Counted from the first letter of the stretch, positions 8,451-19,561 are shown. The stretch: 64,000 nucleotides of DNA from Gammaproteobacteria bacterium (GCA_963664945.1 OY761822.1:1135987-1199986), one strand, 5' to 3'. A program made the numbers and translations. Notes: a model not told the origin generated them from the letters alone.

Positions 8451-9470
8451 TCAGAAGTTCGTGCATTCGTATGGCTTGACCGTCTCTCCGGGCCGCCAGA
8501 CCCACTGTTTGTTCATGGTGACCGGCGCGGTGAACGTTTCCGGATCGGTGACCGTGATGGTGTAGTCGAGATTCGCGCCGTCGCCGCTCAGCGAGAACCG
8601 CTCCTGGAATCGCGCCTGGCTGCTCTGTGGGATGCCCCCGGCATTGAAGTGATACCAGTCTGCGGAGTGCGTCTCCACGATCAGGTCATCGCCATCCCAG
8701 CTACCTGTCGAATAGCCCAGAAGAGTGGCTGACACATCGTCGGTTACGGCGTCCGGGTCCATGTGAATCCTCCGGACCAGGTCGTATTCTTCAATCAGGA
8801 ACAGAATGTCGTCGCCGTCCCGGGTGAATGCCACGGGGTAGGGCTGGTGCATGATCCATGGCATGCCCTTGGGGGTGCAGTCGCCGATGGGGTTGTCCAC
8901 CAGCGGATCGAATGCGGCGAGGGCGGCGGCTGCCGACTCCGTAAGGGGATATTCGTCCATACCCATGTACCGGCCCGGGCCGTTGAAGCGCGTGCTCCAG
9001 ACGCGAAAGATGCCCTGGTCCGCCGCGCCCGCATCGCCGTCACCGAGCCAGTAGTCGGACTGGCCGAGATGTTCTTCCGACCAGTGGGGCGCAACGCCCG
9101 GACGCGTCACGACTTCGCGGCCGTCGGACAGCAGGATGTTGTTGATCCACATTTCGGAGTCGCCGTCCCTGGCCGGGAAGCCGGCCACGGCGACCTGGTC
9201 CCCCTCGCTCAACAGGCTGGGACCGACGTCCATGCGGCTCAGGATGCTTACTGAGTTGGTCTCGATATCCCACGACTCGCCTTGTGCGGTCCGGATGGTG
9301 AACTGCACGTGTGGGTTCCGCCACATGAGCCGGGTGATCTCGCCCTCGAGCACCGTCAGGTTGTCCATATCGAAGACGCCGCTGAAGGCGTGGTGGCCGA
9401 TCGCCGAAACCGGCAGCAGGCCGAGCAATCCGAGTGACAGGGCGGCGACGCCGCGATACCTGCTTTTCAT
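8451..9470 (-). CDS. Secreted DUF6152-like protein, long form (paralogue 1 of 4)
   Basis: Start moved to MKSRYRGVAALSLGLLGLLPVSAIG|HHAFSGVFD.., with SD gggaga upstream of ATG 9470. Family signature is HH(S/A)F..FD....G.V....W.NPH, followed by a ~230-aa C-terminal domain shared with 14472..15545 and 32961..34031. Confidence 0.75.
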   Translation of the reverse strand: MKSRYRGVAALSLGLLGLLPVSAIGHHAFSGVFDMDNLTVLEGEITRLMWRNPHVQFTIRTAQGESWDIETNSVSILSRMDVGPSLLSEGDQVAVAGFPARDGDSEMWINNILLSDGREVVTRPGVAPHWSEEHLGQSDYWLGDGDAGAADQGIFRVWSTRFNGPGRYMGMDEYPLTESAAAALAAFDPLVDNPIGDCTPKGMPWIMHQPYPVAFTRDGDDILFLIEEYDLVRRIHMDPDAVTDDVSATLLGYSTGSWDGDDLIVETHSADWYHFNAGGIPQSSQARFQERFSLSGDGANLDYTITVTDPETFTAPVTMNKQWVWRPGETVKPYECTNF

Positions 9471-9682
9471 TGTTCGTTCTCCCGAGTACAGACTCAATGC
9501 CAGGTTACTTCCATGGCAAAGAAACGATCGAAGACCTCGCGCCCCGGATGGTTGTTTGCGTTCCGCTCCAGTGCTCATCGCGAGGTCATCGTGTTGCCTC
9601 TTTCATTGACCGATTCTACTACGGGCCCGGTCACTGCGGCGGGGGGGCACTGCGGCGGGGGGCACCGCAACGAATCCGGCGG

Positions 9683-11524
9683 CTATTCCACGACCAGGTG
9701 GCAGTGAACGCAGTTCTGCGTCTGCGACTGGCGGTCGATGACGTGGCCCGAAGCGTCGAAGGGACTCAGTTCCCGGTGGCATTCGCCGCAGTTCTGTTGC
9801 TCTGCGATGACGGCGCGGTGGACCCGCTCGAAGTGCGCGTATCCGGGCCGGGGATTCGCAACCAGTTCCTCAAGCCGATGGCATCCGTCGCAGGACGCTG
9901 ACTCAGCGGGTGACAGTGTGAGCGGCGGCAACCCGGTCTCGATCCTCAGTTCAGGCTGACGCAGCTCCCGAGTCTCGGCGACTTCGCGCAGCAGCGTTCG
10001 GCCGGCAACGCGGCCCGTCAGAATCGCCGGTCCCAGGAAGGTTCCCTCCAGACCTGCGGATCCGTTGACCCCCGCGAACCCCGTCAACTCGCCGGAGGCA
10101 TACAGTCCGGGTATGGGCGTCCCGTCTTCATGGACAACGCGCATCTGCCGGTCGACCATCACCCCGCCCATGCTCTTGCGGGTCATGGGAAAGAACTGGA
10201 TGGCGTAGAAGGGAGGTTGATCGATCCTGGCGAGTGCAACGAGGTCGTCGGCGCTTGCGAAGCGGCCGAAGTCCTCGTCGCGACCCTGATCGACCATCGC
10301 GTTGTAGCGCGCGACCGTGGTTTCGAGCCCGCCGGCATCCTGACCGATCGCCCCGGCCAGCTCGGCGAGGGTCGCCGCCTGCGTGGTCAGCAAGGCATTG
10401 TCGAGGATTTCCTCGCGAATACGCCGAAAATTGTCCCAGCCGCTGCCCGAGACGTAGAAGCGCTCGTTGTCATCGTCGTCGAAGATCGCCCAATAGGTTG
10501 AAGGGCTCTGCGCGACGACGGCCGCCAGCAACACCGTCGGGTCGGCCAGTTCATTGACGAAGCGCTGCCCGTCGGCGTTAACCCAGATCGACACTTCGTT
10601 TCTCGCCGCGAGCGCACGTCCTTCCCCGGGATACTGGGGATGGGGCAATCCCCAGGGATAGTTCCATTGGTGGTCCATGCGGTGAAAACCCGCCTCGACT
10701 TCTCTCGCCAGGTCATGGCCGGAACCCACGGAGTTCAGGCCGGAACCGATGAGCAGTTCGCCGGGTTCGGCCAGATGCGCCGGCCAGAAACGCCTGACCA
10801 TCTCCAGGTTGCTCTGAAAGCCCCCGGTTGCGAGAAGCACGCGCGGCGCACGCAGTTCGTCGGCTTCGCCGCTCCTGGTATTCTCGCCCCGCACGCCCAC
10901 GACGCGCCCCTGTTCGACCAGCAACTCCGTCACCCGGAAGTTCCAGCGGAACGACACATTGGCATGCCGCAACACCTCCCGGTAGATGGGCGTGACCAGT
11001 CCGAGGCCGCGGCCATCGGTGCGGTGAAAACGGCGCACGCTGTTGCCGGGCTGGGGATTCAGGCTGAGCCACCGCACCCCCAGCGATTCCAGCCACTGTC
11101 CCAGTTCGGTCCTGGAGTTCTGAGTGTAATAGTCCACCCAGTAGGGATCGGGATCGTCGCCCCGGTTGAAGAAGTCTTCGGACGCGAGTTCGGGCGTGTC
11201 CTCAATGCCCTGAGCGCGCTGAAAGTCGGAATCGATGACGGCGACACCGCCGCCGGACATCACCGCATGTCCGCCGAATACGGACCAGACGTCGACAAAC
11301 TGGACTTCCAAGCCGCCGCGAGCGGCTTCCAGTGCCGCGGAGAGCCCCGATATGCCGGCGCCCACGACGATGACGTCGGGATCCTGATGTGTTTGCGAGT
11401 GTGCGGGTGAGCCCGTGCCCAATGATCCGACGCCGATCAACGCAATGATCGCGGCGCGGGTCACGGAGAAGTGAGCGGCACCCGGCGATTTGTTCGCCGC
11501 TGCGCCGCCCCGCACCCGGAGCAA
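9683..11524 (-). CDS. Periplasmic flavocytochrome c: FAD-dependent (fumarate-reductase/KstD-like) oxidoreductase with a C-terminal tri-haem domain
   Basis: N-terminal signal-like segment, then the dinucleotide fold DVIVVGAGISGLSAALEAA and a flavoprotein body. The C-terminal ~75 aa carry three CxxCH motifs (CDGCH, CGECH, CVHCH). Confidence 0.8.
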   Translation of the reverse strand: MLRVRGGAAANKSPGAAHFSVTRAAIIALIGVGSLGTGSPAHSQTHQDPDVIVVGAGISGLSAALEAARGGLEVQFVDVWSVFGGHAVMSGGGVAVIDSDFQRAQGIEDTPELASEDFFNRGDDPDPYWVDYYTQNSRTELGQWLESLGVRWLSLNPQPGNSVRRFHRTDGRGLGLVTPIYREVLRHANVSFRWNFRVTELLVEQGRVVGVRGENTRSGEADELRAPRVLLATGGFQSNLEMVRRFWPAHLAEPGELLIGSGLNSVGSGHDLAREVEAGFHRMDHQWNYPWGLPHPQYPGEGRALAARNEVSIWVNADGQRFVNELADPTVLLAAVVAQSPSTYWAIFDDDDNERFYVSGSGWDNFRRIREEILDNALLTTQAATLAELAGAIGQDAGGLETTVARYNAMVDQGRDEDFGRFASADDLVALARIDQPPFYAIQFFPMTRKSMGGVMVDRQMRVVHEDGTPIPGLYASGELTGFAGVNGSAGLEGTFLGPAILTGRVAGRTLLREVAETRELRQPELRIETGLPPLTLSPAESASCDGCHRLEELVANPRPGYAHFERVHRAVIAEQQNCGECHRELSPFDASGHVIDRQSQTQNCVHCHLVVE

Positions 11525-11580: not shown

Positions 11581-12333
11581 CTATTCACCTTGGGCCAATG
11601 GCTGTTGGACGCTCTCGGCCAGCGCTTCCAGCTTTGCGATGAGTTCGTCAGGCGCCAGGTAGCCGCCAAGTTGAACGCCGTCTTCTGTGAGTATGGTGGG
11701 CGTTCCGCGCACACTCACCTGGCGGCCCAGATCAAAGTGCGAGGCAACGGGGGTCGCGTCGCAGGATTGTTCAGGCAACGTGTCCTGAAGAATCGCTTCC
11801 GTGAAGGCGACCTGGCGGTCTGCGTCGCACCAGACCTTGTCGGCCTTGTCCCAGGAATCCGAGTCCGGCCCCGTTCTCGGGTAGGACAGGTAGCGGACCT
11901 CGACGCCCAGCGCGTTGATCTGGTCCATTTCCCGATGCAACTGGCGGCAGAAGCCGCAGTCGATGTCGGTGAACACGGTCACCGTGTGCCGTGCATCTAC
12001 CGAATCCGGGCTGAACACGATCATGGATTCGGGATCGACGCTGGCGAGGATGTCCGCCCGGGCCCGGGCGCGGCGCCGCTCGGTCAGGTTGCGCCTGTCC
12101 TGAAGGTCGAAGACATCGCCCTGGATCAGGAAGCTGCCGTCCCTTGAGATGTACACGACGTCGGAGTCGAGGACGATTTCGTACATGCCGGGGAGGGGCG
12201 AGTCATGGATGTCCTGTGCCTCGACGCCAGGCAGCGTCAAAGCCAGCTCTTCCCTGGTCAGCTCACCGTCCTGGGCGCTGGCGGACGCTACAAACATGAA
12301 CGGCGCCAGACAGAGTGTCCACTTCGGATTCAT
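11581..12333 (-). CDS. dsbC: Thiol:disulfide interchange protein DsbC
   Basis: 250 aa with a signal peptide, dimerisation domain and thioredoxin fold carrying TDIDCGFCRQLH (CxxC). Confidence 0.9.
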   Translation of the reverse strand: MNPKWTLCLAPFMFVASASAQDGELTREELALTLPGVEAQDIHDSPLPGMYEIVLDSDVVYISRDGSFLIQGDVFDLQDRRNLTERRRARARADILASVDPESMIVFSPDSVDARHTVTVFTDIDCGFCRQLHREMDQINALGVEVRYLSYPRTGPDSDSWDKADKVWCDADRQVAFTEAILQDTLPEQSCDATPVASHFDLGRQVSVRGTPTILTEDGVQLGGYLAPDELIAKLEALAESVQQPLAQGE

Positions 12334-12367
12334 TGCTCGTCCCTAGTCGGACCCTAAAGAAGGGATA

Positions 12368-12444
12368 GTAGCACCTGGGCGCCTGCGGCGCAGGCGAAGG
12401 GCTTGTCCGAGTGGCGCGGGCGGCTTTGGTAGCACCTGGGCGCC
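12368..12444. repeat. Two copies of a 16-nt direct repeat GTAGCACCTGGGCGCC upstream of dsbC, at the left edge of the low-GC islet
   Basis: Copies at 12368..12383 and 12429..12444. Copy 1 is followed by the palindrome CGCCTGC-GGC-GCAGGCG. Copy 2 is followed by cgaggctc-gaaga-cgaggctc. Confidence 0.6.
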
Positions 12445-12570
12445 CGAGGCTCGAAGACGAGGCTCTGATTTCAGGGTCGCTGGGCCTTTTGTCGACTTGA
12501 AAGCCGATGATTTGTTTTACCAGGACCGGATTAGTGCGGGGATGTAGTGACATAACTGGCAAACTAGATT

Positions 12571-13449
12571 CTACGGAAATTCAAACCCGAAGGATTCTGA
12601 ATCCGGGTCAATCGTTAATATCCCATTCTTCAATAGATCAATACCTATAATATTTCTTGTATAGTCGGATATTAGAACTGGAAAATCCTTAACTAGCACA
12701 TCACCAAACGAAAATGAAGGTACGATAGCGTGGGCAACTCGAACATTGCTTATTCCGTCGACCGTAATGCGAACACGATCCGAAAAAACGAGGTTCGATA
12801 GATCACCCAAAGCTCTTTCTGCTAAATCCATGGAAATCTGCGTTTGAAGCCCTCCAGAATCAATAATGAACTTATCGACAATACCATTGACATTCACTTC
12901 GGCATAGAGATATTGTTGAACAATTTCTAATGGATGCATGTTGATATTCTCTATAGAGAAACGACCATACGAAATAAAATTGTCTTTGAACGAAATTGAG
13001 TAGCGGTTACCATTAAAAAACCCTCCACCCACAATACCGTCAACTTCTCGCTGCACGATTTCTGAAGCAAGAACGGTATCCAATACAAAAAATACGCTTT
13101 CCCGCGTCCGCAACTTGCCGACACTGAATTGCCCCGGTCGGACTACGTCTATTTCCGTCTCACCACCATCAGGATTCTGGAATTTTGCTGCGGATACATC
13201 CAAATTGTATCGTTGAACAAAATCCTTTGATATGGCTGGCAAGCTACTGCCAGTGTCGACAAGCAAGTTGACGTTTCGTCCGTTAATGCGGCCTTCGACC
13301 CAATAGCTAGGATTCTCGTCATGAAAATCATGACGGTACATCGGAATCACAATGTGCGATGTGCATGATGAAAGGACCGACACTGAAGCTACAAGCAGTG
13401 CGATATGTCTGATCCATAACGGCGAATGGCCAATGCTGTTAGCTATCAT
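12571..13449 (-). CDS. Retropepsin-like (clan AA) aspartic protease lipoprotein with two catalytic-type motifs in one chain
   Basis: Low-GC gene. Start moved to MIANSIGHSPLWIRHIALLVASVSVLSSC (lipobox LSSC). Motifs are LLVDTGSS in the N-terminal half and FIIDSGG in the C-terminal half, giving a pseudo-dimeric layout. Confidence 0.7.
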   Translation of the reverse strand: MIANSIGHSPLWIRHIALLVASVSVLSSCTSHIVIPMYRHDFHDENPSYWVEGRINGRNVNLLVDTGSSLPAISKDFVQRYNLDVSAAKFQNPDGGETEIDVVRPGQFSVGKLRTRESVFFVLDTVLASEIVQREVDGIVGGGFFNGNRYSISFKDNFISYGRFSIENINMHPLEIVQQYLYAEVNVNGIVDKFIIDSGGLQTQISMDLAERALGDLSNLVFSDRVRITVDGISNVRVAHAIVPSFSFGDVLVKDFPVLISDYTRNIIGIDLLKNGILTIDPDSESFGFEFP

Positions 13450-13549
13450 ATGGTTCCAATAAGTTGTAGGTATAATCGTGTTCTGGGTGCGTTTGAACAG
13501 TAACGAAAAATGCAGCCCAAAACGTAGGCTAAACCGACTTATCTTGATG

Positions 13550-14203
13550 TCACCGAAAATCAACAGCTTGGATAGTAAGTGTCTTGGAAGTTGCGGGTGA
13601 TGTTACTTCAGCTACTGGAAACCCGTTAATCAATTCGTATACTCGCACATTCAAGTGTTCACCAGATCTAGCGTCCGTTATAATCTGGACAGTAGGTAAA
13701 GTCATTTTGAACGCTAGAGGCGCACCCTGCTCTTTCATCCTCTTGATCGCCCAACTGTAGACTTCGTCTGGGTTGCTCAGAGACTGTATAGTTCCAGATA
13801 CATGCCAATTTGTTTCCAGTCCATCCACAACGAATCCGTAATCATCAAGTACATTCAAAACACCGAATGTTTTTTCTTGAACAATGATTGCTTTATGGCC
13901 ATCTATCTGATAAACAAAGTCAAGAGAGAGGCCAGTTCGTACACGTTGGTATGCATCTGAAGAACTACTCCCGTGTGCCGATCTAGTGCTTCTTAGTGTA
14001 TAACTCGGAGGACAATCCCTCTCAGTAGGCGCAACACTTCCATCGGAACAAAATACTCCTTCGACAATTATTCCATATGTGCAATTGCCAAATTGATCTG
14101 GTACACAACCTAACCTAACGTATGAACACATCGATCCCATCATTAGGGCGCAAATAGAAACAAGTGAAAAGCGTTACACGATAGCATTGAAGCTGTTCAT
14201 CAT
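13550..14203 (-). pseudogene. Cys-rich hypothetical secreted protein; reading frame from the SD-preceded ATG 14203 is broken by an in-frame TAA at codon 10 (alternative: shorter CDS 13550..14143)
   Basis: Minus strand reads gagggagaatATGATGAACAGCTTCAATGCTATCGTGTAACGCTTTTCACTTGTTTCTATTTGCGCCCTAATGATGGGA.., which translates as MMNSFNAIV*RFSLVSICALMMGSMCSYV.. The signal-peptide-like segment spans the stop at 14174..14176. The ATG at 14143 has no SD. No family recognised. Confidence 0.5.
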
Positions 14204-14429
14204 ATTCTCCCTCATATGTTCGAAATATTGCGAAGACGTACATAGCCCATTAGCATAGACTTCGATGGAAGTCAAAGTTGCAGTTGGCAGCCTAGTGGAC
14301 GAATGCTACGCTGGATCGTCACATTGGGGGCGAATGGGGATCTGTTCCCCCGTTACCCTCCGGTAACGGGCAATGAACGGCGGAAACAGACACACCAGTC
14401 GTGAATTCCCGGGCCACGTCGGACGGTCG

Positions 14430-14499
14430 GCCGGTCGATCAGCCGTTTTCGGCGGGGCGGCCTTCCGCCCCATGCAGCAGAGCTTTCGCCGCGGGCTGC
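14430..14499 (+). repeat. Copy 1 of a ~70-nt repeated leader element containing the hairpin GGGGCGG-CCTT-CCGCCCC (partner at 48577..48645)
   Basis: gccggtcgatcagccgttttcggcggggcggccttccgccccATGcagcagagctttcgccgcgggctgc. It ends in the first codons of the DUF6152-like gene. Confidence 0.7.
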
Positions 14500-15545
14500 A
14501 GGGCTTTAGCCACGGGCTGAAGGGCTTCCGCAACGGACTGCTGGGCTTTGGCATATGGATGCTCGTGGGCTTCCCTGCGGCAGGCGCCTTCGCCCACCAC
14601 AGCTTTGCACCGCACTTCGACCCCGACGATACGCTGAGCATCACCGGCGTCATCACCGAGTTCGAGCCCCGCAACCCTCACGTCTACCTGCACATCAAGG
14701 GAACCGAGGGCGGAGGCGCGCCGCAGGCGTATGTGTGCGAATCCGCCGGTATTTCCTCATTGGAACGCAACGGGCTGACCCGCGACATGTTCGCCGTGGG
14801 AGCCAGCGTTCGCATCGATGGCGTCCGTGGCCGGCGCGACCCGAACTTCTGCTTCTTCCGGACCGTTCACCTGGCGGACGGCAGGACGTTGAACACCGGA
14901 GGAAACGGTGGCGACGGCGACGCTCCCGCCGCGCTTCCGAGCCGGGATTCCATCGAAGGCACATGGTTCATCATCCCCGCAGGAAGGACCAGCAGCGGGC
15001 CGTGGGAAATGATCAACTACCTGACCCCGGAGGGCGAGGCAGCGGTGGCCGCGTACGATCCTTTCCGCGACGACCCGACGCTGCGCTGCAGCCCGGTCGG
15101 CATACGCAGGGTCTGGTCGTCGCCGAGCACCCCGCTGAATATCCAGCGGGAGGGCGACACGGTCATCATCCACCACGAGTGGATGGACACCGTTCGCACG
15201 GTCCATCTCTACGCCGAACCGCCGGCGGACGTGGCGCCGTCGACATTGGGTTATTCCGTTGGGCGATTCGAGGACGGCGTTCTGGTGGTGGAGACGGCGA
15301 ATTTCGCACCCGGCGTGCTTCGCCAGTATGTGGAGGAAGAAGGCCAGCCGACCCGGGGACTGCTTCACTCCGAGGAACTGAGAGTCGTCGAGCGCATCAG
15401 TTTCGATCCTGATACACAGACGCTCAACGTGCTCATCGAACGTACGGACCCAAGGTTCTTCACCATCGAGTTTCCGCCGATATCCATCGATTACGCACCC
15501 TCCAGCCTGGAAATCGCACAATACGGTTGCGTACCGGAAGTCTGA
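14472..15545 (+). CDS. Secreted DUF6152-like protein, long form (paralogue 2 of 4), Tat-like signal peptide
   Basis: MQQSFRRGLQGFSHGLKGFRNGLLGFGIWMLVGFPAAGAFA|HHSFAPHFDPDDTLSITGVITEFEPRNPHVYLHI.. The start is uncertain (14373, 14472 or 14559); 14472 gives an SFRR Tat-like n-region. The signal contains a 3 x 21-nt tandem repeat (GLxGFxx). Confidence 0.7.
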   Translation: MQQSFRRGLQGFSHGLKGFRNGLLGFGIWMLVGFPAAGAFAHHSFAPHFDPDDTLSITGVITEFEPRNPHVYLHIKGTEGGGAPQAYVCESAGISSLERNGLTRDMFAVGASVRIDGVRGRRDPNFCFFRTVHLADGRTLNTGGNGGDGDAPAALPSRDSIEGTWFIIPAGRTSSGPWEMINYLTPEGEAAVAAYDPFRDDPTLRCSPVGIRRVWSSPSTPLNIQREGDTVIIHHEWMDTVRTVHLYAEPPADVAPSTLGYSVGRFEDGVLVVETANFAPGVLRQYVEEEGQPTRGLLHSEELRVVERISFDPDTQTLNVLIERTDPRFFTIEFPPISIDYAPSSLEIAQYGCVPEV

Positions 15546-15609: not shown

Positions 15610-16533
15610 TCAACCTCTCGGATGGTGCCTGGCGTGAAGCTCCTTCATGCGCTCTCGCGCCACGTGTGTGTAGATCTGGGTGGTCGAGACATCGCTGTGG
15701 CCCAGCAGCAGTTGTACCACGCGCAGATCCGCGCCGTGGTTGAGGAGGTGGGTGGCGAAGGCGTGCCGAACCGTGTGCGGGGAGAGCTTCTTCGAGATAC
15801 CCGCGTGGCCGGCGTGGCGCTTGATCAGGTACCAGAACGCCTGGCGCGTCATGGGTCCGCCGCGGCGCGTGGGGAACAGAAACTCGGTCTGACGCCCGCG
15901 GAGGATCTCCGCCCGCGGGCCCAGGACGAATTTCTCCAGCCAGTCCTGCGCTTCGTCGCCCAGGGGAATCAGCCGCTCCCTGTCACCCTTGCCGATGATC
16001 CTCAACACCCCCTGGTTCAGGTTCACCTGGGACAGTTTCAGACCAACCAGTTCGGACACCCGCACGCCCGTGGCGTACAGCAACTCCAGCATCGTGCGGT
16101 CACGGTGGCCCAGGGGTTGGGCGACATCGGGTGCGCCGAGCAGGGCCTCCACGTCCGCCTCGGTGAGCGAATGCGGAAGGCGCTGTCCGACCCTCGGCAT
16201 GTCGATCTGCGCGGTGGGATCCACCCTGATCGCGCCCTCTCTCAGCAGGTACCGGTAGAAGCGCCTGAAAGTGGAAAGCTGACGCGCGGTTGAACGCGGT
16301 TTCGCACCCGTGCTCACACGCCACGCCAGGTATTCAAGCAGATCGGCCTCGGCCGCGTTCATCAGGCTGGTTCCATGCTCGACGAAGTGCCTGTTGAGGG
16401 CGAGAAGATCGGAGCAGTAGGCGCGCAGCGTATTTTCCGAAAGGCCGCGCTCGGCCCAGATTCCGTCCAGGAACCAGTCGATGGCCGCCGCCGGATCCGC
16501 GAAACGGTCGGTCGTCATGGAATGGCCTGCCAT
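15610..16533 (-). CDS. xerD: Site-specific tyrosine recombinase XerD
   Basis: IDWFLDGIWAERGLSENTLRAYCSDLLAL.. N-terminal SAM-like domain, and a catalytic C-terminus with ..HTVRHAFATHLLNHGADLRVVQLLLGHSDVSTTQIYTHV. Start set at MAGHSMTTDRF (16533 or 16518), giving ~300 aa. The 373-aa track ORF over-extends. Confidence 0.9.
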   Translation of the reverse strand: MAGHSMTTDRFADPAAAIDWFLDGIWAERGLSENTLRAYCSDLLALNRHFVEHGTSLMNAAEADLLEYLAWRVSTGAKPRSTARQLSTFRRFYRYLLREGAIRVDPTAQIDMPRVGQRLPHSLTEADVEALLGAPDVAQPLGHRDRTMLELLYATGVRVSELVGLKLSQVNLNQGVLRIIGKGDRERLIPLGDEAQDWLEKFVLGPRAEILRGRQTEFLFPTRRGGPMTRQAFWYLIKRHAGHAGISKKLSPHTVRHAFATHLLNHGADLRVVQLLLGHSDVSTTQIYTHVARERMKELHARHHPRG

Positions 16534-16562
16534 GGCAGGCGGTAATATAAACTGACAGCGTT

Positions 16563-16622
16563 CCGGTGTGCCTGCCGGTGTGCCTGCCGGTGTGCCAGCC
16601 AGCGTGCCAGCCGGTGTGCCGG
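16563..16622. repeat. 5 x 12-bp tandem repeat (CCGGTGTGCCTG consensus) in the xerD / acyltransferase divergent intergenic region
   Basis: ccggtgtgcctg ccggtgtgcctg ccggtgtgccag ccagcgtgccag ccggtgtgccgg, read directly. Confidence 0.9.
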
Positions 16623-16688
16623 GTGCGAATTGCTCATGGCCATTGCGGTCCCAGCTTGCCATAGCGACGGTTCCGCGGAAACGAATTA

Positions 16689-17450
16689 ATGCTATGTTCA
16701 GCCTCCGTGACTCTCCGGAATCTGAAATCAATGCTGGCGCGGGCGGTTTACGGCCCCTACGTGTGGCTGATGCTGGCGGCCGCGGTGATCCCGACGCTGG
16801 CGCTGCTTCTGGTCACGCCGACGCTCGGCGCACGGCGGCATGTTGCTCACCGGGGCGCCCGGGTCTTCTTTCTGCTCATCGGCAGCCCCATCCGGATCGA
16901 AGGCGCCGGCAATCTTCCGGACGAACCCTGCGTCGTGGTCGCCAATCATGCCAGTTACCTGGACGGGATCATCCTCAAGGCCGCTTTGCCACCGCAATTC
17001 ACCTTCCTGATCAAGGCTGAAATGACGTCCGTACCGCTGGCGGGTTTCCTCCTGAAACGCATCGGTTCCGCATTTGTGAAACGCGGGGAGACCTCTCACC
17101 GGCTCAGGACGGGGCGCCGCCTGCTCAAGGGCGCCATGCAGGGTGAATCGCTGGCATTTTTCCCCGAGGGCACCTTCGACGGCAACCCGGGATTGAAGCC
17201 CTTTCGTCCGGGGGCTTTTGCTGCGGCGTGGCGGGCCGGATTGCCCGTCGTACCCATTGTCATCAGCGGTTCCCGGCACATGCTGCCCGCGCAAGTCTGG
17301 CTGTGCGCGCCGGCGCGAATATCCATTACGATATGCGAACCTGTCGATTCCGGAGTCCTCGAATCGGCTTCGGAATTGTCAGCGGTCAGCCGCACCCGAA
17401 TGCTCGAATATCTTGGGGAGCCCGACCTTCAGAAGGTAGACTCGAGATGA
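16689..17450 (+). CDS. Lysophospholipid (1-acyl-sn-glycerol-3-phosphate) acyltransferase family protein
   Basis: NHASYLD (HX4D block) and FFPEGTFDG blocks with an N-terminal TM segment. The start may be 16689 or 16731. The stop overlaps the next gene's start (ATGA at 17447..17450). Confidence 0.8.
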   Translation: MLCSASVTLRNLKSMLARAVYGPYVWLMLAAAVIPTLALLLVTPTLGARRHVAHRGARVFFLLIGSPIRIEGAGNLPDEPCVVVANHASYLDGIILKAALPPQFTFLIKAEMTSVPLAGFLLKRIGSAFVKRGETSHRLRTGRRLLKGAMQGESLAFFPEGTFDGNPGLKPFRPGAFAAAWRAGLPVVPIVISGSRHMLPAQVWLCAPARISITICEPVDSGVLESASELSAVSRTRMLEYLGEPDLQKVDSR

Positions 17451-19561
17451 CGAATCCCATCTGGACGCCATCGCCCGAGCGCGTCGCCGGAAGCAACATG
17501 CAGAGGTTCCTGCGGGCGCAGGCGCATCGGCTCGAGAAACCGGAATACGACGCCCTCTACCGGTGGAGCCTCGATCACAATTCCGAGTTCTGGGCCGCAT
17601 TCTGGGAATTCACCGGTATTCGCGCGATGACGCCCTACCGTAGCGTGCTGACCGACCCGGACCGCATGCCCGGCGCCCGCTGGTTCGAGGGCGCCCGGCT
17701 GAATTATGCGGACAATCTGCTGCGCCCGGAACATCGGGGGACCGCTCTGGTGTTCTACAGCGAGCGCGGCGACCGCATCGAGATGAGTTGGGACGAGTTG
17801 CGCCGCGATGTGGCAGTGCTGGCGCGTGCGCTCCGATCCACGGGCGTCGGCGAAGGGGACCGGGTCGCCGGGCTCCTGCCCAATCGACCCGAGGCAGTAG
17901 TGGCCATGCTGGCTTGCGCGAGTCTTGGCGCCGTATGGTCATCGTGTTCCCCGGATTTCGGCGCGGGCGCCGTACTCGACCGCTTCGGTCAGATCAGGCC
18001 CAGGGTGCTGTTCGCGACCGACGGTTACTTCTACAACGGCAAGACCATCGACTGCCGGCCCACGCTGGCTCGCGTCGCCGAACGGATCGACTCGCTGGAG
18101 GCGGTAATCGTCATCGGCTACGTCGAGCCTGAGCCGAACCTCTCCGCGGTACCGGGCGCCCGGCGGTACGGGGACATCCTGGCCGAGGGGTCGGGCGCGG
18201 AGGCATCAGGCGCCGAGGCATCCGGCGCGGAGGCGTCAGGCATGAGGGTAGCCGGAGCCGAAGCGTCAGGCATGAGGGTAGCCGGAGCCGAAGCGTCAGG
18301 CGACAGGGCAACCAGAGCCCACGCATCCGGCACCGAAGCATTCGGCACCGAGGCACCCGGCGCCAAGGTACCGGAATACAAGGCGTTGCCGTTCTCCCAG
18401 CCGCTCTACATCATGTATTCCTCCGGAACGACGGGCGTTCCCAAGTGCATCGTTCACGGCGCGGGCGGCACACTGATACAGCACCTCAAGGAACTCCAAC
18501 TCCACTGCGACATAAAGCCGGGCGATGCGGTGTTCTACTTCACGACTACCGGGTGGATGATGTGGAACTGGATGGTGTCCGCGCTTGCGCTCGGGGCGAC
18601 GCTGGTCCTGTTCGATGGCTCGCCCTTTCATCCGGACCCCGGGGTTCTGTGGCGGATAGCGGAGCGAGAGAACCTGGCAGTGTTCGGAACCAGCGCGAAG
18701 TACCTGAGCGCGCTGGAAAAATCGGGCTACCGGCCTGCGGAACACGTTCGGCTGGCCCGCCTGGCAAGCGTACTATCCACCGGTTCGCCCCTGGCGCCGT
18801 CCAGTTTCGACTTCGTCTACAAACACATCAAGGACGACCTCCAGTTATCATCGATTGCCGGCGGCACGGACATCATCGGCTGCTTCATCTCCGGCAATCC
18901 CATGCTGCCGGTCTACCGGGGCGAACTTCAGTGCAGCGCGCTGGGACTGGCTGTGGACGTGTTCGACGACGGTGGCAGGCCGGTACGCGGACAAAAGGGT
19001 GAACTGGTCTGCACTGCGCCCTTCCCGTCGATGCCGGTGTCGTTCTGGAACGATTCCGGCGACGCCATGTACCGCGCCGCCTATTTCGAGCGTTTTCCCG
19101 GCGTCTGGTGTCACGGCGACTACGTGGAAATGACCCCGAGCGGCGGCTTCGTCTTCCACGGCCGTTCGGATGCCATTCTCAATCCCGGCGGCGTACGCAT
19201 CGGCACTTCGGAAATCTACCGGATCGTAGAGAATTTCGAGGAGATCGCCGAAGCCATCGCGGTGGGCCAACAGTGGGAAGGGGATGTGCGCGTGGTGCTT
19301 TTCGTCAGGCTCCAGCCCGGCCATCGGCTGAACGACGACCTGGCGGAACGAATTCGGCTCGCAGTCAGGCGCGATGCCAGTCCGAGACACGTTCCGGCCA
19401 GGACTCTAGAAACTCCGGACATCCCCAGGACGCGAAGCGGCAAGATCGTCGAACTGGCGGTTCGGGACGTGATTCACGGGCGGGAGGCGGTCAATGCGGA
19501 TGCGCTTGCCAATCCCGAGGCGCTGGAATATTTCAGCAACCGCGCCGAACTGGCTTCCTGA
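17447..19561 (+). CDS. Acetoacetyl-CoA synthetase (acetoacetate-CoA ligase) carrying a ~55-aa tandem-repeat insertion
   Basis: MTNPIWTPSPERVAGSNMQRFLRAQ..YDALYRWSLDHNSEFWAAFWEFTGI.. and AMP-binding YIMYSSGTTGVPKCIVH. The 5' part of the track ORF 17228..19561 is out-of-gene read-through. Confidence 0.9.
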   Translation: MTNPIWTPSPERVAGSNMQRFLRAQAHRLEKPEYDALYRWSLDHNSEFWAAFWEFTGIRAMTPYRSVLTDPDRMPGARWFEGARLNYADNLLRPEHRGTALVFYSERGDRIEMSWDELRRDVAVLARALRSTGVGEGDRVAGLLPNRPEAVVAMLACASLGAVWSSCSPDFGAGAVLDRFGQIRPRVLFATDGYFYNGKTIDCRPTLARVAERIDSLEAVIVIGYVEPEPNLSAVPGARRYGDILAEGSGAEASGAEASGAEASGMRVAGAEASGMRVAGAEASGDRATRAHASGTEAFGTEAPGAKVPEYKALPFSQPLYIMYSSGTTGVPKCIVHGAGGTLIQHLKELQLHCDIKPGDAVFYFTTTGWMMWNWMVSALALGATLVLFDGSPFHPDPGVLWRIAERENLAVFGTSAKYLSALEKSGYRPAEHVRLARLASVLSTGSPLAPSSFDFVYKHIKDDLQLSSIAGGTDIIGCFISGNPMLPVYRGELQCSALGLAVDVFDDGGRPVRGQKGELVCTAPFPSMPVSFWNDSGDAMYRAAYFERFPGVWCHGDYVEMTPSGGFVFHGRSDAILNPGGVRIGTSEIYRIVENFEEIAEAIAVGQQWEGDVRVVLFVRLQPGHRLNDDLAERIRLAVRRDASPRHVPARTLETPDIPRTRSGKIVELAVRDVIHGREAVNADALANPEALEYFSNRAELAS
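18194..18358 (+). repeat. In-frame degenerate 15-nt / 30-nt tandem repeat inside the acetoacetyl-CoA synthetase gene
   Basis: ggcgcggaggcatca / ggcgccgaggcatcc / ggcgcggaggcgtca, then 2 x ggcatgagggtagccggagccgaagcgtca, then degenerate units. Encodes GAEAS GAEAS GAEAS GMRVAGAEAS GMRVAGAEAS GDRATRAHAS GTEAF GTEAP. Confidence 0.9.

What the first reader, a model, noticed from the sequence alone, without database searches (positions are those of the whole stretch)
12346..14372. Low-GC two-gene islet breaks the conserved xerD-dsbC neighbourhood: lipoprotein retropepsin-like protease plus a Cys-rich partner
xerD and dsbC are immediate neighbours in E. coli and many gammaproteobacteria. Here they are 3.3 kb apart. 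The gap contains a strikingly AT-rich block with two overlapping minus-strand genes. Upstream is a Cys-rich 197-217-aa protein with no family I recognise. Downstream is a lipoprotein (lipobox LSSC) with two retropepsin-type motifs in one chain (LLVDTGSS and FIIDSGG), a pseudo-dimeric bacterial aspartic protease. The block is bounded on the left by 16-nt direct repeats (12368, 12429) and on the right by a perfect 9-bp hairpin (CCCGTTACC-CTCC-GGTAACGGG, 14349..14370). Single-chain two-lobe retropepsin-like proteases in bacteria are rare and functionally obscure. The partner could be its substrate, inhibitor or cargo.
Basis: partly seen in the sequence, partly recalled or inferred. Interest (0 to 1): 0.55.

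Follow-up and report, generated by a model that had tools for sequence, protein, structure and literature searches.

The report
Foreign islet: fused-dimer retropepsin lipoprotein operon
A 1.9-kb piece of foreign, AT-rich DNA next to dsbC carries a rare but conserved two-gene unit: a small lipoprotein, disabled here by a stop codon, and a membrane-anchored aspartic protease built like two fused retroviral protease halves; it is a real, undescribed gene pair of moderate interest.

Summary
Window ~12391-14282 is the only low-GC island in 64 kb (GC3 0.35-0.41 against 0.77-0.79). It is missing from a ~90%-identical metagenome contig (L018), where dsbC and the DUF6152 gene are adjacent.

The downstream gene (12571-13449, minus strand, 292 aa) is a lipoprotein. 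Each of its two lobes alone passes Pfam Asp_protease_2. DTG and DSG are invariant in eight homologues, and the lobes align to each other (HHalign 92.7%).

The upstream "Cys-rich" gene belongs to a very rare, unannotated lipoprotein family: 13 hits among 1.84 billion representatives. Members at 23-43% identity sit directly upstream of a two-lobed Asp_protease_2 gene in five further contexts, so the pair is co-inherited.

- The genes do not overlap; there is a 100-nt gap.
- The window's partner gene carries a TAA in its signal peptide (AAA in a relative, whose copy has a different TGA).
- The hairpin and the first repeat copy are native flank, not islet boundaries.
- A native DUF6152 gene also separates xerD from dsbC.

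I think the partner is most likely the protease's client or substrate. A dedicated inhibitor is the main rival. This step is inferred, not shown.

The parts
12391..14282 (.). DNA present in the window but absent from the ~90%-identical relative L018. The AT-rich core is ~12506-14280. Positions 12391-12505 are GC-rich and hold the second repeat copy.
   Evidence: L018 aligns to window 15188-14283 and 12390-9624 with only ~35 nt between the two blocks. L021, a second carrier at 83% identity, starts matching at window 14275. GC and GC3 profiles agree.
12571..13449 (-). Single-chain two-lobed retropepsin-like (clan AA) lipoprotein, 292 aa. Start ATG 13449.
   Evidence: Pfam Asp_protease_2 matches twice, E 4e-19. 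Each half alone is above the gathering score. The start and the lipobox are shared with P0003, P0004 and P0006. dN/dS among homologues is 0.11-0.17.
13363..13449 (-). Signal peptide with lipobox L-S-S-C (residues 1-29). Cys29 is the predicted lipidation site and +2 is Thr.
   Evidence: The sequence is MIANSIGHSPLWIRHIALLVASVSVLSSC|TSH. SC or AC at the same column is conserved in the homologues that include this region.
12970..13308 (-). N-terminal retropepsin lobe (residues ~48-160). Catalytic D65-T66-G67 is at 13249-13257 and the GIVGGG motif at residues 138-143.
   Evidence: Pfam PF13650 scores 44.4 bits for this half alone. D65, T66, G67, G138 and G141 are invariant in 8 sequences.
12574..12927 (-). 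C-terminal retropepsin lobe (residues ~175-292). Catalytic D197-S198-G199 is at 12853-12861 and the NIIGIDLL motif at residues 266-273.
   Evidence: Pfam PF13650 scores 31.7 bits for this half alone. D197, G199, N266, G269, D271 and L273 are invariant. HHalign of N-lobe against C-lobe gives 92.7% probability, E 4.4e-7, with DTG on DSG. The best PDB sequence matches are Ddi1, ASPRV1 and ApRick protease domains.
13550..14203 (-). Partner gene. It was originally a ~216-217-codon lipoprotein (ATG 14200 or 14203, with GGAG just upstream) and is now interrupted. The surviving ORF 13550-14143 (197 aa) lacks a signal peptide.
   Evidence: Homologous partners align to window 14200-13601 straight through the stop. 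The 3- and 11-sequence alignments show the lipobox Cys, four conserved Cys, a linker and a C-terminal domain. dN/dS against L021 is 0.26.
14174..14176 (-). Premature TAA at codon 9-10 of the partner, inside the signal peptide (MMNSFNAIV*RFSLVSICALMMGSMC).
   Evidence: The sequence was read directly. The relative L021 has AAA (Lys) at this position and its own TGA at codon 44, where the window has GGA.
12368..12389 (+). Direct repeat, copy 1. It is native: in L018 it is the left arm of a 17-bp palindrome.
12429..12450 (+). Direct repeat, copy 2 (91% over 22 nt). It lies in the GC-rich part of the extra DNA. The origin of this 61-nt local duplication is unresolved.
14349..14370 (+). Perfect 9-bp hairpin. 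It is native intergenic sequence upstream of the DUF6152 gene and is conserved in the islet-free relative. It is not an islet terminus.
11581..12333 (-). dsbC (left flank, native).
   Evidence: Pfam DsbC_N plus Thioredoxin_2. 91% identical to the L018 protein.
14373..15545 (+). DUF6152 gene (right flank, native). It lies between the islet and xerD (15610-16731, minus strand).
   Evidence: Pfam PF19649. 87% identical to the protein in L018, where the gene abuts dsbC.

Best explanation
The block is a ~1.8-1.9 kb horizontally acquired islet carrying a conserved two-gene lipoprotein operon.

Gene 1 encodes a ~200-aa lipoprotein. After the lipidated Cys comes a short four-Cys module predicted as a beta-hairpin, then a disordered Ser/Pro/Asp-rich linker, then a ~115-aa beta-sandwich with one helix.

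Gene 2 encodes a lipoprotein aspartic endopeptidase in which two retropepsin-like lobes are fused in one chain. Each lobe supplies one catalytic Asp (D65 in DTG, D197 in DSG). One polypeptide would therefore form the active site that retroviral, Ddi1 and APRc proteases form as homodimers.

Both proteins have lipoboxes and a non-Asp residue at +2. They are therefore predicted to be exported, lipidated and sent to the outer membrane. That sorting prediction uses the E. coli +2 rule and is an inference.

Most likely mechanism (inferred): the small lipoprotein is the protease's dedicated client. The protease would cut it in its exposed linker or tail, maturing or shedding the beta-sandwich domain from the envelope.

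In this genome the partner has just been knocked out by a nonsense codon in its signal peptide. Only the protease is likely still made.

Shown: foreign origin and the presence/absence polymorphism; the two-lobe clan AA assignment; lipoboxes; conservation of the pair; purifying selection; the nonsense mutation. Inferred: localisation, catalytic activity, and the partner's role.
For: Foreign islet:
- GC 0.43 against 0.63, and GC3 0.35-0.41 against 0.77-0.79.
- Absent from L018, whose flanks are 88-91% identical.
- A second carrier, L021, shares the right end at window 14275, and its remaining 157 nt upstream of that point match nothing in the window.

Protease:
- PF13650 matches twice, and each lobe alone is above threshold.
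- The catalytic and hydrophobic-hydrophobic-Gly motifs are invariant in 8 sequences down to 25% identity.
- The two lobes are homologous to each other.
- The family profile hits Ddi1, ASPRV1 and ApRick domains at 1e-6 to 1e-4.
- Foldseek top hits are 9IY9, tethered HIV-1 protease dimers, plasmepsins and APRc.

Pair conservation:
- Partner then protease, same strand, 17-373 nt apart, in six independent contexts.
- The partner family is tiny: 13 hits at E<=1e-3 in 1.84e9 representatives.

Selection:
- Partner omega is 0.26 at dS 0.37.
- Protease omega is 0.17 at dS 0.61.

Client reading:
- The predicted linker is disordered, with pLDDT below 50 at residues 43-70.
- Characterised bacterial retropepsin-like enzymes process envelope proteins. 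APRc/RC1339 is the example (PMC4140852), and a Rickettsia rickettsii autotransporter-maturing peptidase is reported in a paper that uses the term retropepsin-like (PMC10414592, title and abstract only).
- RimB and RloA are encoded in operons with functional partners (PMC11957791, PMC12239564).
- From my own knowledge, SpoIIGA/pro-sigmaE and HybD/HybC are protease genes that sit beside their substrate genes.
Against: - No experiment or complex model links the two proteins. The AF2 model of the protease is poor (pLDDT 47.8), so the single-active-site geometry is inferred from sequence.
- The protease stays under purifying selection in L001 and L005, which have no intact partner upstream. The partner therefore cannot be its only substrate, unless paralogues act in trans. 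One such paralogue, P0009, exists in the Rariloculaceae chromosome.
- The partner is broken or lost in 4 of 6 close copies: window, L021, L003/L007 and L001/L008.
- Small beta-sandwich proteins encoded next to secreted proteases are often inhibitors.
- Partner paralogues also sit beside a HExxH lipoprotein with no aspartic protease present.
Confidence: 0.55

Rival explanations
1. The partner is a dedicated inhibitor or chaperone of the protease. It would be made first from the same operon to keep the envelope-anchored enzyme silent until it reaches its destination. This would resemble staphostatin/staphopain or the B. fragilis Bfi/Bfp lipoprotein pairs.
For: - The partner gene always lies upstream on the same strand.
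- It is a small beta-sandwich with one helix and no enzymatic motif.
- Both proteins would share a compartment, since both have lipoboxes.
- The distant subfamily has a conserved extended Gly/Pro-rich C-terminal tail (..GGPP....FGGPN) that could occupy a cleft.
- The inhibitor analogies themselves come from my own knowledge and were not tested.
Against: - There is no sequence or fold similarity to any known inhibitor. The best Foldseek PDB hit has E 0.03 and TM <=0.35. Pfam, NCBIfam, PADLOC and PHROGs give nothing.
- The protease is retained under purifying selection where the partner is lost. That would be unexpected if unrestrained enzyme were harmful.
- The same C-terminal domain is paired with a metallopeptidase-like HExxH lipoprotein in L009-L011. 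An active-site inhibitor rarely spans catalytic classes.
Confidence: 0.25
2. In this genome the islet is only a decaying remnant of a larger mobile element, with no current function. The protease ORF is intact only because the acquisition is recent.
For: - The partner carries a nonsense codon.
- The islet has no mobility gene, tRNA or clear att site.
- Related copies lie among IS3, IS630 and IS66 elements, toxin-antitoxin genes and an integrase, and they often carry frameshifts or deletions.
- The GC3 of 0.35-0.41 has not moved towards the host's 0.78.
Against: - A 292-codon ORF in 43%-GC DNA is unlikely to stay open by chance.
- The family-wide protease omega is 0.11-0.17, including in lineages without the partner.
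- The partner's omega of 0.26 shows it was functional until recently.
- This rival concerns the present state of the window copy. It does not say what the module is.
Confidence: 0.15
3. The pair is an anti-phage or other conflict system related to the PADLOC candidate PDC-M08.
For: - The C-lobe gives a weak hit to PDC-M08B (E 9.5e-7, 26.9 bits).
- The module sits in accessory regions rich in IS elements and toxin-antitoxin genes.
Against: - The hit is a domain-level match of a ~127-position retropepsin profile to one lobe.
- The partner and the HExxH protein hit no PADLOC model.
- Both proteins are exported lipoproteins, which is an unusual place for a phage sensor or effector.
- There are no phage or plasmid homologues.
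Confidence: 0.05

Closest known systems
APRc / RC1339 of Rickettsia conorii (ApRick; PDB 5C9B/5C9D/5C9F); TIGR02281 clan_AA_DTGA family
   Same: It is a bacterial clan AA retropepsin-like fold with a DTG site. It is envelope-associated and reported to process surface proteins (PMC4140852). The family profile hits ApRick at E 1.2e-4. Foldseek aligns 84-89 residues at rmsd 2.6-2.8.
   Different: APRc is a single lobe that must homodimerise, and by the TIGR02281 family description (my own knowledge) it carries N-terminal transmembrane helices rather than a lipobox. The window protein scores 43.4 bits against the TIGR02281 cut-off of 57.95, so it is not a member. No partner lipoprotein is described for APRc.
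Bacteroides fragilis 'putative endopeptidase / Exported protein', PDB 9IY9 (420 aa)
   Same: It is the best structural match (Foldseek E 6.3e-8, 260 aligned columns). This suggests a single bacterial chain spanning both lobes. It is an exported protein.
   Different: Sequence similarity is marginal: E 1.8e-3, with only the N-lobe aligned. It is about 130 aa longer. The TM-score is low (0.32) because my model is of low confidence. I found no paper on it. Its gene neighbourhood was not examined.
Retroviral protease, Ddi1 RVP and ASPRV1 homodimers (MEROPS A2/A28/A33-type)
   Same: The D-T/S-G and hydrophobic-hydrophobic-Gly motifs are the same. These are the best sequence hits for the C-lobe, with Ddi1 at 1.4e-6 and ASPRV1 at 6e-5. 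Engineered tethered HIV-1 protease dimers are among the top fold hits over ~220-235 columns.
   Different: Those are obligate homodimers of one lobe. Here the two lobes are fused naturally, have diverged (20% identity over the 88 HHalign-aligned columns) and are lipid-anchored.
Pepsin family A1, including bacterial pepsin homologues such as the shewasins (PMC2761423, PMC4814920)
   Same: The architecture is the same: a bilobed single chain with one catalytic Asp per lobe. Plasmepsins appear among the fold hits.
   Different: PF00026 is not met (E 0.095, 12.6 bits against a cut-off of 19.9). The lobes are ~115-125 aa and retropepsin-sized. The fusion is therefore probably an independent, later event.
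RimB and RloA retropepsin-like proteases of Pseudomonas (PMC11957791, PMC12239564)
   Same: They are bacterial retropepsin-like enzymes. The RloA proteins are secreted, and both are encoded in operons with the proteins they act with.
   Different: The RloA proteins are described as dimers (PMC12239564). No lipoprotein is mentioned in the RloA paper. The operon partners are unrelated (ATP-grasp and transglutaminase-like proteins). No sequence match was seen here.
Protease plus inhibitor, or protease plus substrate, gene pairs (staphopain/staphostatin, B. fragilis Bfp/Bfi, SpoIIGA/pro-sigmaE). Recalled from my own knowledge; not tested.
   Same: A protease gene is co-transcribed with a small dedicated partner. 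Some of these pairs are lipoproteins and some lie on mobile elements.
   Different: Different catalytic classes or folds. The partner here has no homology to any of those partners.

Membership tests
Pfam PF13650 Asp_protease_2 (clan AA, retropepsin-like), two copies | Each lobe scores above the curated gathering score | tested here: met
   N half 44.4 bits and C half 31.7 bits, against a cut-off of 24.3. Whole protein 69.5 bits with 2 stretches.
Pfam PF13650 Asp_protease_2 (clan AA, retropepsin-like), two copies | Catalytic Asp-Thr/Ser-Gly in each lobe, plus the hydrophobic-hydrophobic-Gly motif | tested here: met
   D65-T66-G67 is invariant. D197 and G199 are invariant, with Ser or Thr between them. 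G138/G141 (GIVGGG) and N266/G269/D271/L273 (NIIGIDLL) are invariant in 8 sequences. DTG aligns to DSG in the lobe-lobe HHalign.
Pfam PF13650 Asp_protease_2 (clan AA, retropepsin-like), two copies | Retropepsin fold, with both Asp residues facing one cleft | tested here: inconclusive
   The AF2 model has pLDDT 47.8. Foldseek still ranks 9IY9, tethered HIV protease dimers, APRc and Ddi1 at the top, but with TM 0.2-0.33 over the whole chain.
Pfam PF13650 Asp_protease_2 (clan AA, retropepsin-like), two copies | Aspartic endopeptidase activity (acidic optimum, loss on D-to-A mutation) | not testable with these tools
   Needs biochemistry.
TIGR02281 clan_AA_DTGA (APRc-type membrane retropepsins) | Score above the NCBIfam cut-off; a single C-terminal protease domain after a transmembrane region | tested here: not met
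   43.4 bits against a cut-off of 57.95. The architecture is a lipobox plus two lobes.
Pepsin family A1 (PF00026) | Match to the A1 profile | tested here: not met
   E 0.095, 12.6 bits against a cut-off of 19.9, and only around the DTG motif.
Bacterial lipoprotein (signal peptidase II substrate): protease | Positively charged n-region, hydrophobic h-region, lipobox [LVI][ASTVI][GAS]C | tested here: met
   The sequence is ...WIRHIALLVASVSVLSS-C29. The equivalent Cys is conserved in P0003, P0004, P0006, L012 and L015. This was assessed by eye; no dedicated predictor was run.
Bacterial lipoprotein (signal peptidase II substrate): partner | Intact signal peptide with lipobox | tested here: not met
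   The window copy has TAA inside the signal peptide, and the surviving ORF starts 4 residues before the lipobox Cys. Homologues have intact signal peptides ending ..MTSC..IASC..LSAC..VSGC..MAGC. In this subclade the -1 residue is Met (GSMC), which is non-canonical.
Horizontally acquired genomic islet | Compositional deviation and presence/absence between close relatives | tested here: met
   GC3 0.35-0.41 against 0.77-0.79. The empty site is seen in L018. The same module is seen next to non-matching flank sequence in L021.
Horizontally acquired genomic islet | Recognisable mobility machinery or termini (integrase, tRNA target, target-site duplication or inverted repeats) | tested here: not met
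   The window has no tRNA and no Rfam match, and no transposase or integrase ORF in the islet. Non-coding ends are not conserved across loci. Only a weak 9-nt imperfect repeat was found: TTGAAAGCC at 12497 and TTGGCAGCC at 14282. In L015 the pair is bracketed by a 246-nt direct repeat at 96% identity.
PADLOC candidate defence system PDC-M08 | Both components (A and B) present | tested here: not met
   Only a weak B-profile hit to one lobe (26.9 bits). No hit for the partner.

The most novel reading that the evidence does not exclude
The small lipoprotein and the fused-dimer retropepsin form a self-contained, horizontally moving envelope module. The protease would specifically cut its co-encoded partner, releasing the beta-sandwich domain as a surface or extracellular effector. 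The partner would be lost repeatedly under selection, which would explain the independent nonsense, frameshift and IS-deletion events.

The enzyme would also be a natural, independent replay of the retropepsin-to-pepsin gene fusion. It would be caught at a stage where both lobes are still recognisable as retropepsin domains.
Probability: 0.15. Interest if true: 0.65.

Novelty: new variant of a known kind. Interest (0 to 1): 0.42.

Why it matters
Bacterial retropepsin-like proteases have only recently been characterised (APRc, RimB, RloA), and all of those are homodimers. This family offers a naturally fused two-lobe form, lipid-anchored, with a conserved and otherwise unknown partner protein.

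It is therefore a tractable case for two questions:
- How did bilobed aspartic proteases arise from dimeric ones?
- What do envelope retropepsins act on?

The co-encoded partner is an obvious first candidate substrate or regulator. The clean empty site and the independent knock-outs of the partner also make this a tidy small example of gain and decay of accessory envelope genes in uncultured marine Gammaproteobacteria.

It does not overturn anything. The protease domain is Pfam-covered, and a two-lobe bacterial structure (9IY9) already exists.

Tried and rejected
- **Partner family search.** Pfam, NCBIfam, PADLOC and PHROGs gave nothing. The first word-indexed homologue search returned only the query itself. 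Homologues were found only by reading the genes upstream of protease homologues, then by profile search.
- **Partner fold.** The AF2 model is usable for the C-terminal domain (pLDDT 80-94). Foldseek against PDB and BFVD gave only weak beta-sandwich matches to pilin Ig-like domains and tail fibres, with TM <=0.35. I treat these as no match.
- **Repeat proteins.** P0012 and P0019 from the profile search have 8 and 6 short matched stretches. I judged them spurious.
- **Protease structure.** The alignment has only 5 sequences and the model has pLDDT 47.8.
- **Islet termini.**
  - No tRNA and no Rfam family in the window.
  - No conserved non-coding ends across loci.
  - The DNA fold of 12360-12520 is unremarkable, z = -1.9.
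  - I looked by eye for integron attC-like cores and found none.
  - The repeat at 12368/12429 and the hairpin at 14349 were rejected as boundaries because L018 has them.
  - The 10-nt direct repeat D9 and the 12-nt inverted repeat I4, which span the two start codons, were not pursued; I4 lies in sequence that L018 shares with only a few mismatches, and I took D9 for chance.
- **Plasmid or phage origin.** tblastn of the protease against plasmids and phages, and of the partner against plasmids, found no match.
- **Source record.** Its relatives are Ca. Rariloculaceae MAGs.
- **Promoter and terminator scan.** Counts were at or below the shuffle expectation.
- **Literature.** I found no paper on two-lobed bacterial Asp_protease_2 lipoproteins or on 9IY9.
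Full report
**1. What is there**

GC drops from 0.63-0.67 to 0.38-0.46 between ~12500 and ~14300. The third-position GC of the two ORFs inside is 0.41 and 0.35. It is 0.77-0.79 for dsbC, xerD, the flavocytochrome gene and the two DUF6152 genes around them. No other part of the 64-kb window falls as low.

The flanks are as follows:

| Gene | Coordinates | Strand | Evidence |
|---|---|---|---|
| dsbC | 11581-12333 | - | DsbC_N + Thioredoxin_2 |
| DUF6152 gene | 14373-15545 | + | PF19649 |
| xerD | 15610-16731 | - | Pfam Phage_integrase plus Phage_int_SAM_1 domains |

The repeat GTAGCACCTGGGCGCC at 12368 and 12429 and the hairpin at 14349-14370 exist and are unique in the window.

**2. Gene models**

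The longest protease ORF starts at TTG 13563 and would overlap the upstream gene. All homologues instead begin at the position of ATG 13449 (MIANS.., MLTNG.., MLTRN..). They share the signal peptide ending in a lipobox Cys, which is LSS-C29 here. The protease is therefore 12571-13449, 292 aa, and lies 100 nt downstream of the partner's stop codon.

The partner ORF called mechanically is 13550-14143 (197 aa). Homologous partners, however, align to the window from 14200 down to 13601. The frame upstream reads MMNSFNAIV*RFSLVSICALMMGSMC|SYV, with a GGAG a few bases before the two ATGs at 14203 and 14200. The original gene was thus a lipoprotein of about 216-217 codons, and it now carries a TAA at 14174-14176 inside its signal peptide.

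**3. The protease**

- Pfam Asp_protease_2 matches twice. Each half alone exceeds the gathering score, at 44.4 and 31.7 bits against 24.3.
- In an alignment of eight family members down to 25% identity, these residues are invariant:
  - D65-T66-G67
  - D197 and G199 (Ser or Thr between them)
  - G138 and G141 (GIVGGG)
  - N266, G269, D271 and L273 (NIIGIDLL)
- A profile-profile comparison of the N-lobe columns with the C-lobe columns gives 92.7% probability and E 4.4e-7, and places DTG on DSG. The chain is therefore an internal duplication of a retropepsin-like domain.
- The family profile finds Ddi1 RVP domains (1.4e-6), ASPRV1 (6e-5), the Rickettsia ApRick protease (1.2e-4) and, weakly, PDB 9IY9 (1.8e-3).
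- The AF2 model is poor (pLDDT 47.8 from only 5 sequences). I do not rely on its geometry. Its Foldseek ranking is nevertheless coherent: 9IY9 (B. fragilis putative endopeptidase, E 6e-8 over 260 columns), engineered single-chain HIV-1 protease dimers, plasmepsins, APRc and Ddi1.
- It is not a member of TIGR02281 (43.4 against 57.95 bits) or of pepsin family A1.

**4. The partner and the pair**

The partner has no Pfam, NCBIfam, PADLOC or PHROGs family. An exhaustive profile search of 1.84 billion representatives gave 13 hits at E<=1e-3, and I judged two of those (repeat proteins) spurious.

The family architecture, read, is:
- a signal peptide with a lipobox;
- a Cys-containing module with four conserved Cys (C-x7-C-x10-C-x11-C in the window), predicted as a beta-hairpin;
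- a variable Ser/Pro/Asp-rich linker with pLDDT below 50;
- a ~115-aa beta-sandwich with one helix, with pLDDT 80-94.

No solved or viral predicted structure resembles it convincingly.

Every partner homologue whose neighbourhood extended far enough downstream and that belongs to the retropepsin-linked groups is followed on the same strand by a 279-310-aa protein with Asp_protease_2 hits; the translated L012, L015 and L016 proteins carry both D-T/S-G lobes:

| Locus | Partner identity to window partner | Intergenic gap |
|---|---|---|
| L002/L003 | 40% | 373 nt |
| L004 | 43% | 335 nt |
| L012-L014 | 23% | 79 nt |
| L015 | 23% | 17 nt |
| L016/L017 | 25% | 137 nt |

Sequences and gaps are; identities are.

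**5. A third gene in some copies**

- In L004 the pair is followed by a lipoprotein of ~440 aa with a HExxH...E motif. It has weak Pfam hits to M1, BSP and zincin families.
- In L009, L010 and L011, a partner paralogue (P0009, P0010) is followed directly by that HExxH protein, with no aspartic protease.
- The window has no trace of it.

**6. Origin and boundaries**

*Empty site.* A metagenome contig, L018, encodes a DsbC 91% identical, a flavocytochrome 93% identical and a DUF6152 protein 87% identical to those of the window. It aligns to window 15188-14283 and 12390-9624 with only ~35 nt between the blocks. The window therefore has ~1.9 kb extra (12391-14282). In this lineage the DUF6152 gene is the native neighbour of dsbC.

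*More distant relatives.* In L019 and L020, xerD and dsbC are directly adjacent.

*Native features.* L018 contains the 14349 hairpin and the 12368 repeat copy. There the repeat is the left arm of a 17-bp palindrome. Both are native sequence, not islet boundaries. The 12429 copy lies in a GC-rich 115-nt stretch of the extra DNA that I cannot explain.

*Possible target duplication.* An imperfect 9-nt repeat brackets the AT-rich core: TTGAAAGCC at 12497 and TTGGCAGCC at 14282. L018 has a single TTGACAGCC. This is weak evidence.

*A second carrier.* L021 is 83% identical in DNA to the window islet. Its match begins at window 14275, and its first 157 nt match nothing in the window.

*Other contexts:*
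- In L015 the pair is bracketed by a 246-nt direct repeat at 96% identity. The repeat duplicates the 3' end of a hlyIII gene.
- Other copies lie among IS3, IS630 and IS66 elements and toxin-antitoxin genes. In L011 the partner plus HExxH pair lies next to an integrase, Toprim and SSB block.
- All copies are lower in GC than their surroundings.
- No copy is on a known plasmid or phage.
- Named hosts are Ca. Rariloculaceae MAGs, in the Gammaproteobacteria.

**7. Selection and decay**

- Window against L021 partner: dS 0.37, dN 0.097, omega 0.26. L021 has AAA (Lys) where the window has TAA. L021 has its own TGA at codon 44, where the window has GGA. These are two independent, recent nonsense mutations in a gene that had been under constraint.
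- The partner is also frameshifted in L003/L007, although intact in the near-identical L002.
- In L001/L008 an IS3-type element sits upstream of the protease where the partner would be. In L001 a 43-aa inverted remnant lies downstream of the protease.
- The protease ORF is intact in every copy whose sequence is complete. Its omega is 0.17 at dS 0.61 between L001 and L005, which both lack an upstream partner.

**8. How it probably works**

*Shown:*
- a foreign two-gene lipoprotein operon;
- a fused two-lobe clan AA protease with both catalytic motifs conserved;
- a conserved partner;
- purifying selection on both genes.

*Inferred:*
- Both proteins are lipidated and, with Thr, Ser or Ala at +2, sorted to the outer membrane.
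- The two lobes form one pepsin-like active site.
- The partner is the enzyme's client. It would be cut in the linker or tail so that the beta-sandwich is matured or released.

I favour the client reading at roughly 0.35-0.4 of the total, for three reasons:
- Characterised bacterial retropepsin-like enzymes act on specific envelope or operon-encoded proteins (PMC4140852, PMC10414592, PMC11957791, PMC12239564).
- The linker is exposed.
- The same partner domain travels with two different peptidase classes.

The main rival is a co-encoded inhibitor or chaperone, at about 0.25. Against both readings, the protease persists under selection without the partner. The partner is therefore neither its only substrate nor an indispensable safeguard, unless paralogues act in trans. 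One such paralogue exists in the Rariloculaceae chromosome. For this particular genome, the partner is most likely dead and only the protease is functional.

**9. Verdict**

The pair is a genuine, very rare and undescribed module. Several details needed correction: the overlap, the boundaries, the state of the partner, and the native DUF6152 gene.

The protease belongs to a known superfamily, and a bilobed bacterial relative has a solved structure. I therefore rate this as a new variant of a known kind, with interest 0.42.

Limits of this analysis:
- only 8 protease and 11 partner sequences;
- no confident protease structure;
- no complex model;
- no expression data;

Noticed in passing
L004 2263-3622; L009 7174-8388; L010 6925-7662; L011 6920-8392: An unannotated ~440-490-aa lipoprotein family with a HExxH(x19)E gluzincin-like motif. 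Pfam hits to M1, BSP and zincin families are only sub-threshold. It follows the partner (L009-L011) or the partner plus protease pair (L004). The L004 copy is split by a frameshift, and the L009 gene call lacks the N-terminal region.
   Followed up: partly
L015 126-371 and 2493-2738: A 246-nt direct repeat at 96% identity duplicates the 3' end of a hlyIII gene and brackets the partner plus protease pair. This looks like Campbell-type integration of a small element that carries its own copy of the target's end. No recombinase is on the 5.6-kb contig.
   Followed up: partly
window 12391-12505: A GC-rich ~115-nt stretch is absent from L018. It holds the second copy of the 22-nt repeat, 61 nt from the first. 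In L018 the single copy is one arm of a 17-bp perfect palindrome (CCTGGGCGCCTGCGCCG / CGGCGCAGGCGCCCAGG) between the divergent dsbC and DUF6152 genes. The window has lost most of the second arm.
   Followed up: partly
window 8451-9578 (-) and 14373-15545 (+): Two DUF6152 paralogues (375 and 390 aa as called) flank a flavocytochrome-c-like FAD_binding_2 gene (9683-11524) and dsbC. A DUF6152 gene also lies near the partner paralogue in L009 (9441-10520). The function of DUF6152 is unknown.
   Followed up: no
window 18182-18361: In-frame tandem repeats of period 15 and 30 nt (up to 94% matches) lie inside the large acetoacetyl-CoA-synthetase-like ORF 17228-19561. They encode an (AEASG)n / GMRVAGAEAS low-complexity insert.
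   Followed up: no
window 16563-16620 and 14477-14549: A 12-nt tandem repeat (4.8 copies) lies in the 5' extension of the xerD ORF and encodes GTPA-type repeats, so the true xerD start is probably downstream of it. A 21-nt tandem repeat (3.5 copies) lies in the 5' part of the DUF6152 ORF and encodes repeated GFxxGL units ahead of the probable signal peptide.
   Followed up: no
window 13513-13531 (-): A terminator-like hairpin followed by a T-run lies in the 100-nt gap between the partner stop and the protease start. The scan found fewer such sites than expected by chance (1 against 2.2), so it may mean nothing.
   Followed up: no
L021 990-1114: The close relative of the window islet has ~125 extra nucleotides immediately upstream of the protease start codon, compared with the window.
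   Followed up: no
L012 1527-3241 and L013 900-2962: Upstream of the distant partner plus protease pair, across an IS3-family insertion, lie a weak Peptidase_M10-like gene and a HEAT-repeat gene. This is another metallopeptidase in the neighbourhood of the module.
   Followed up: no
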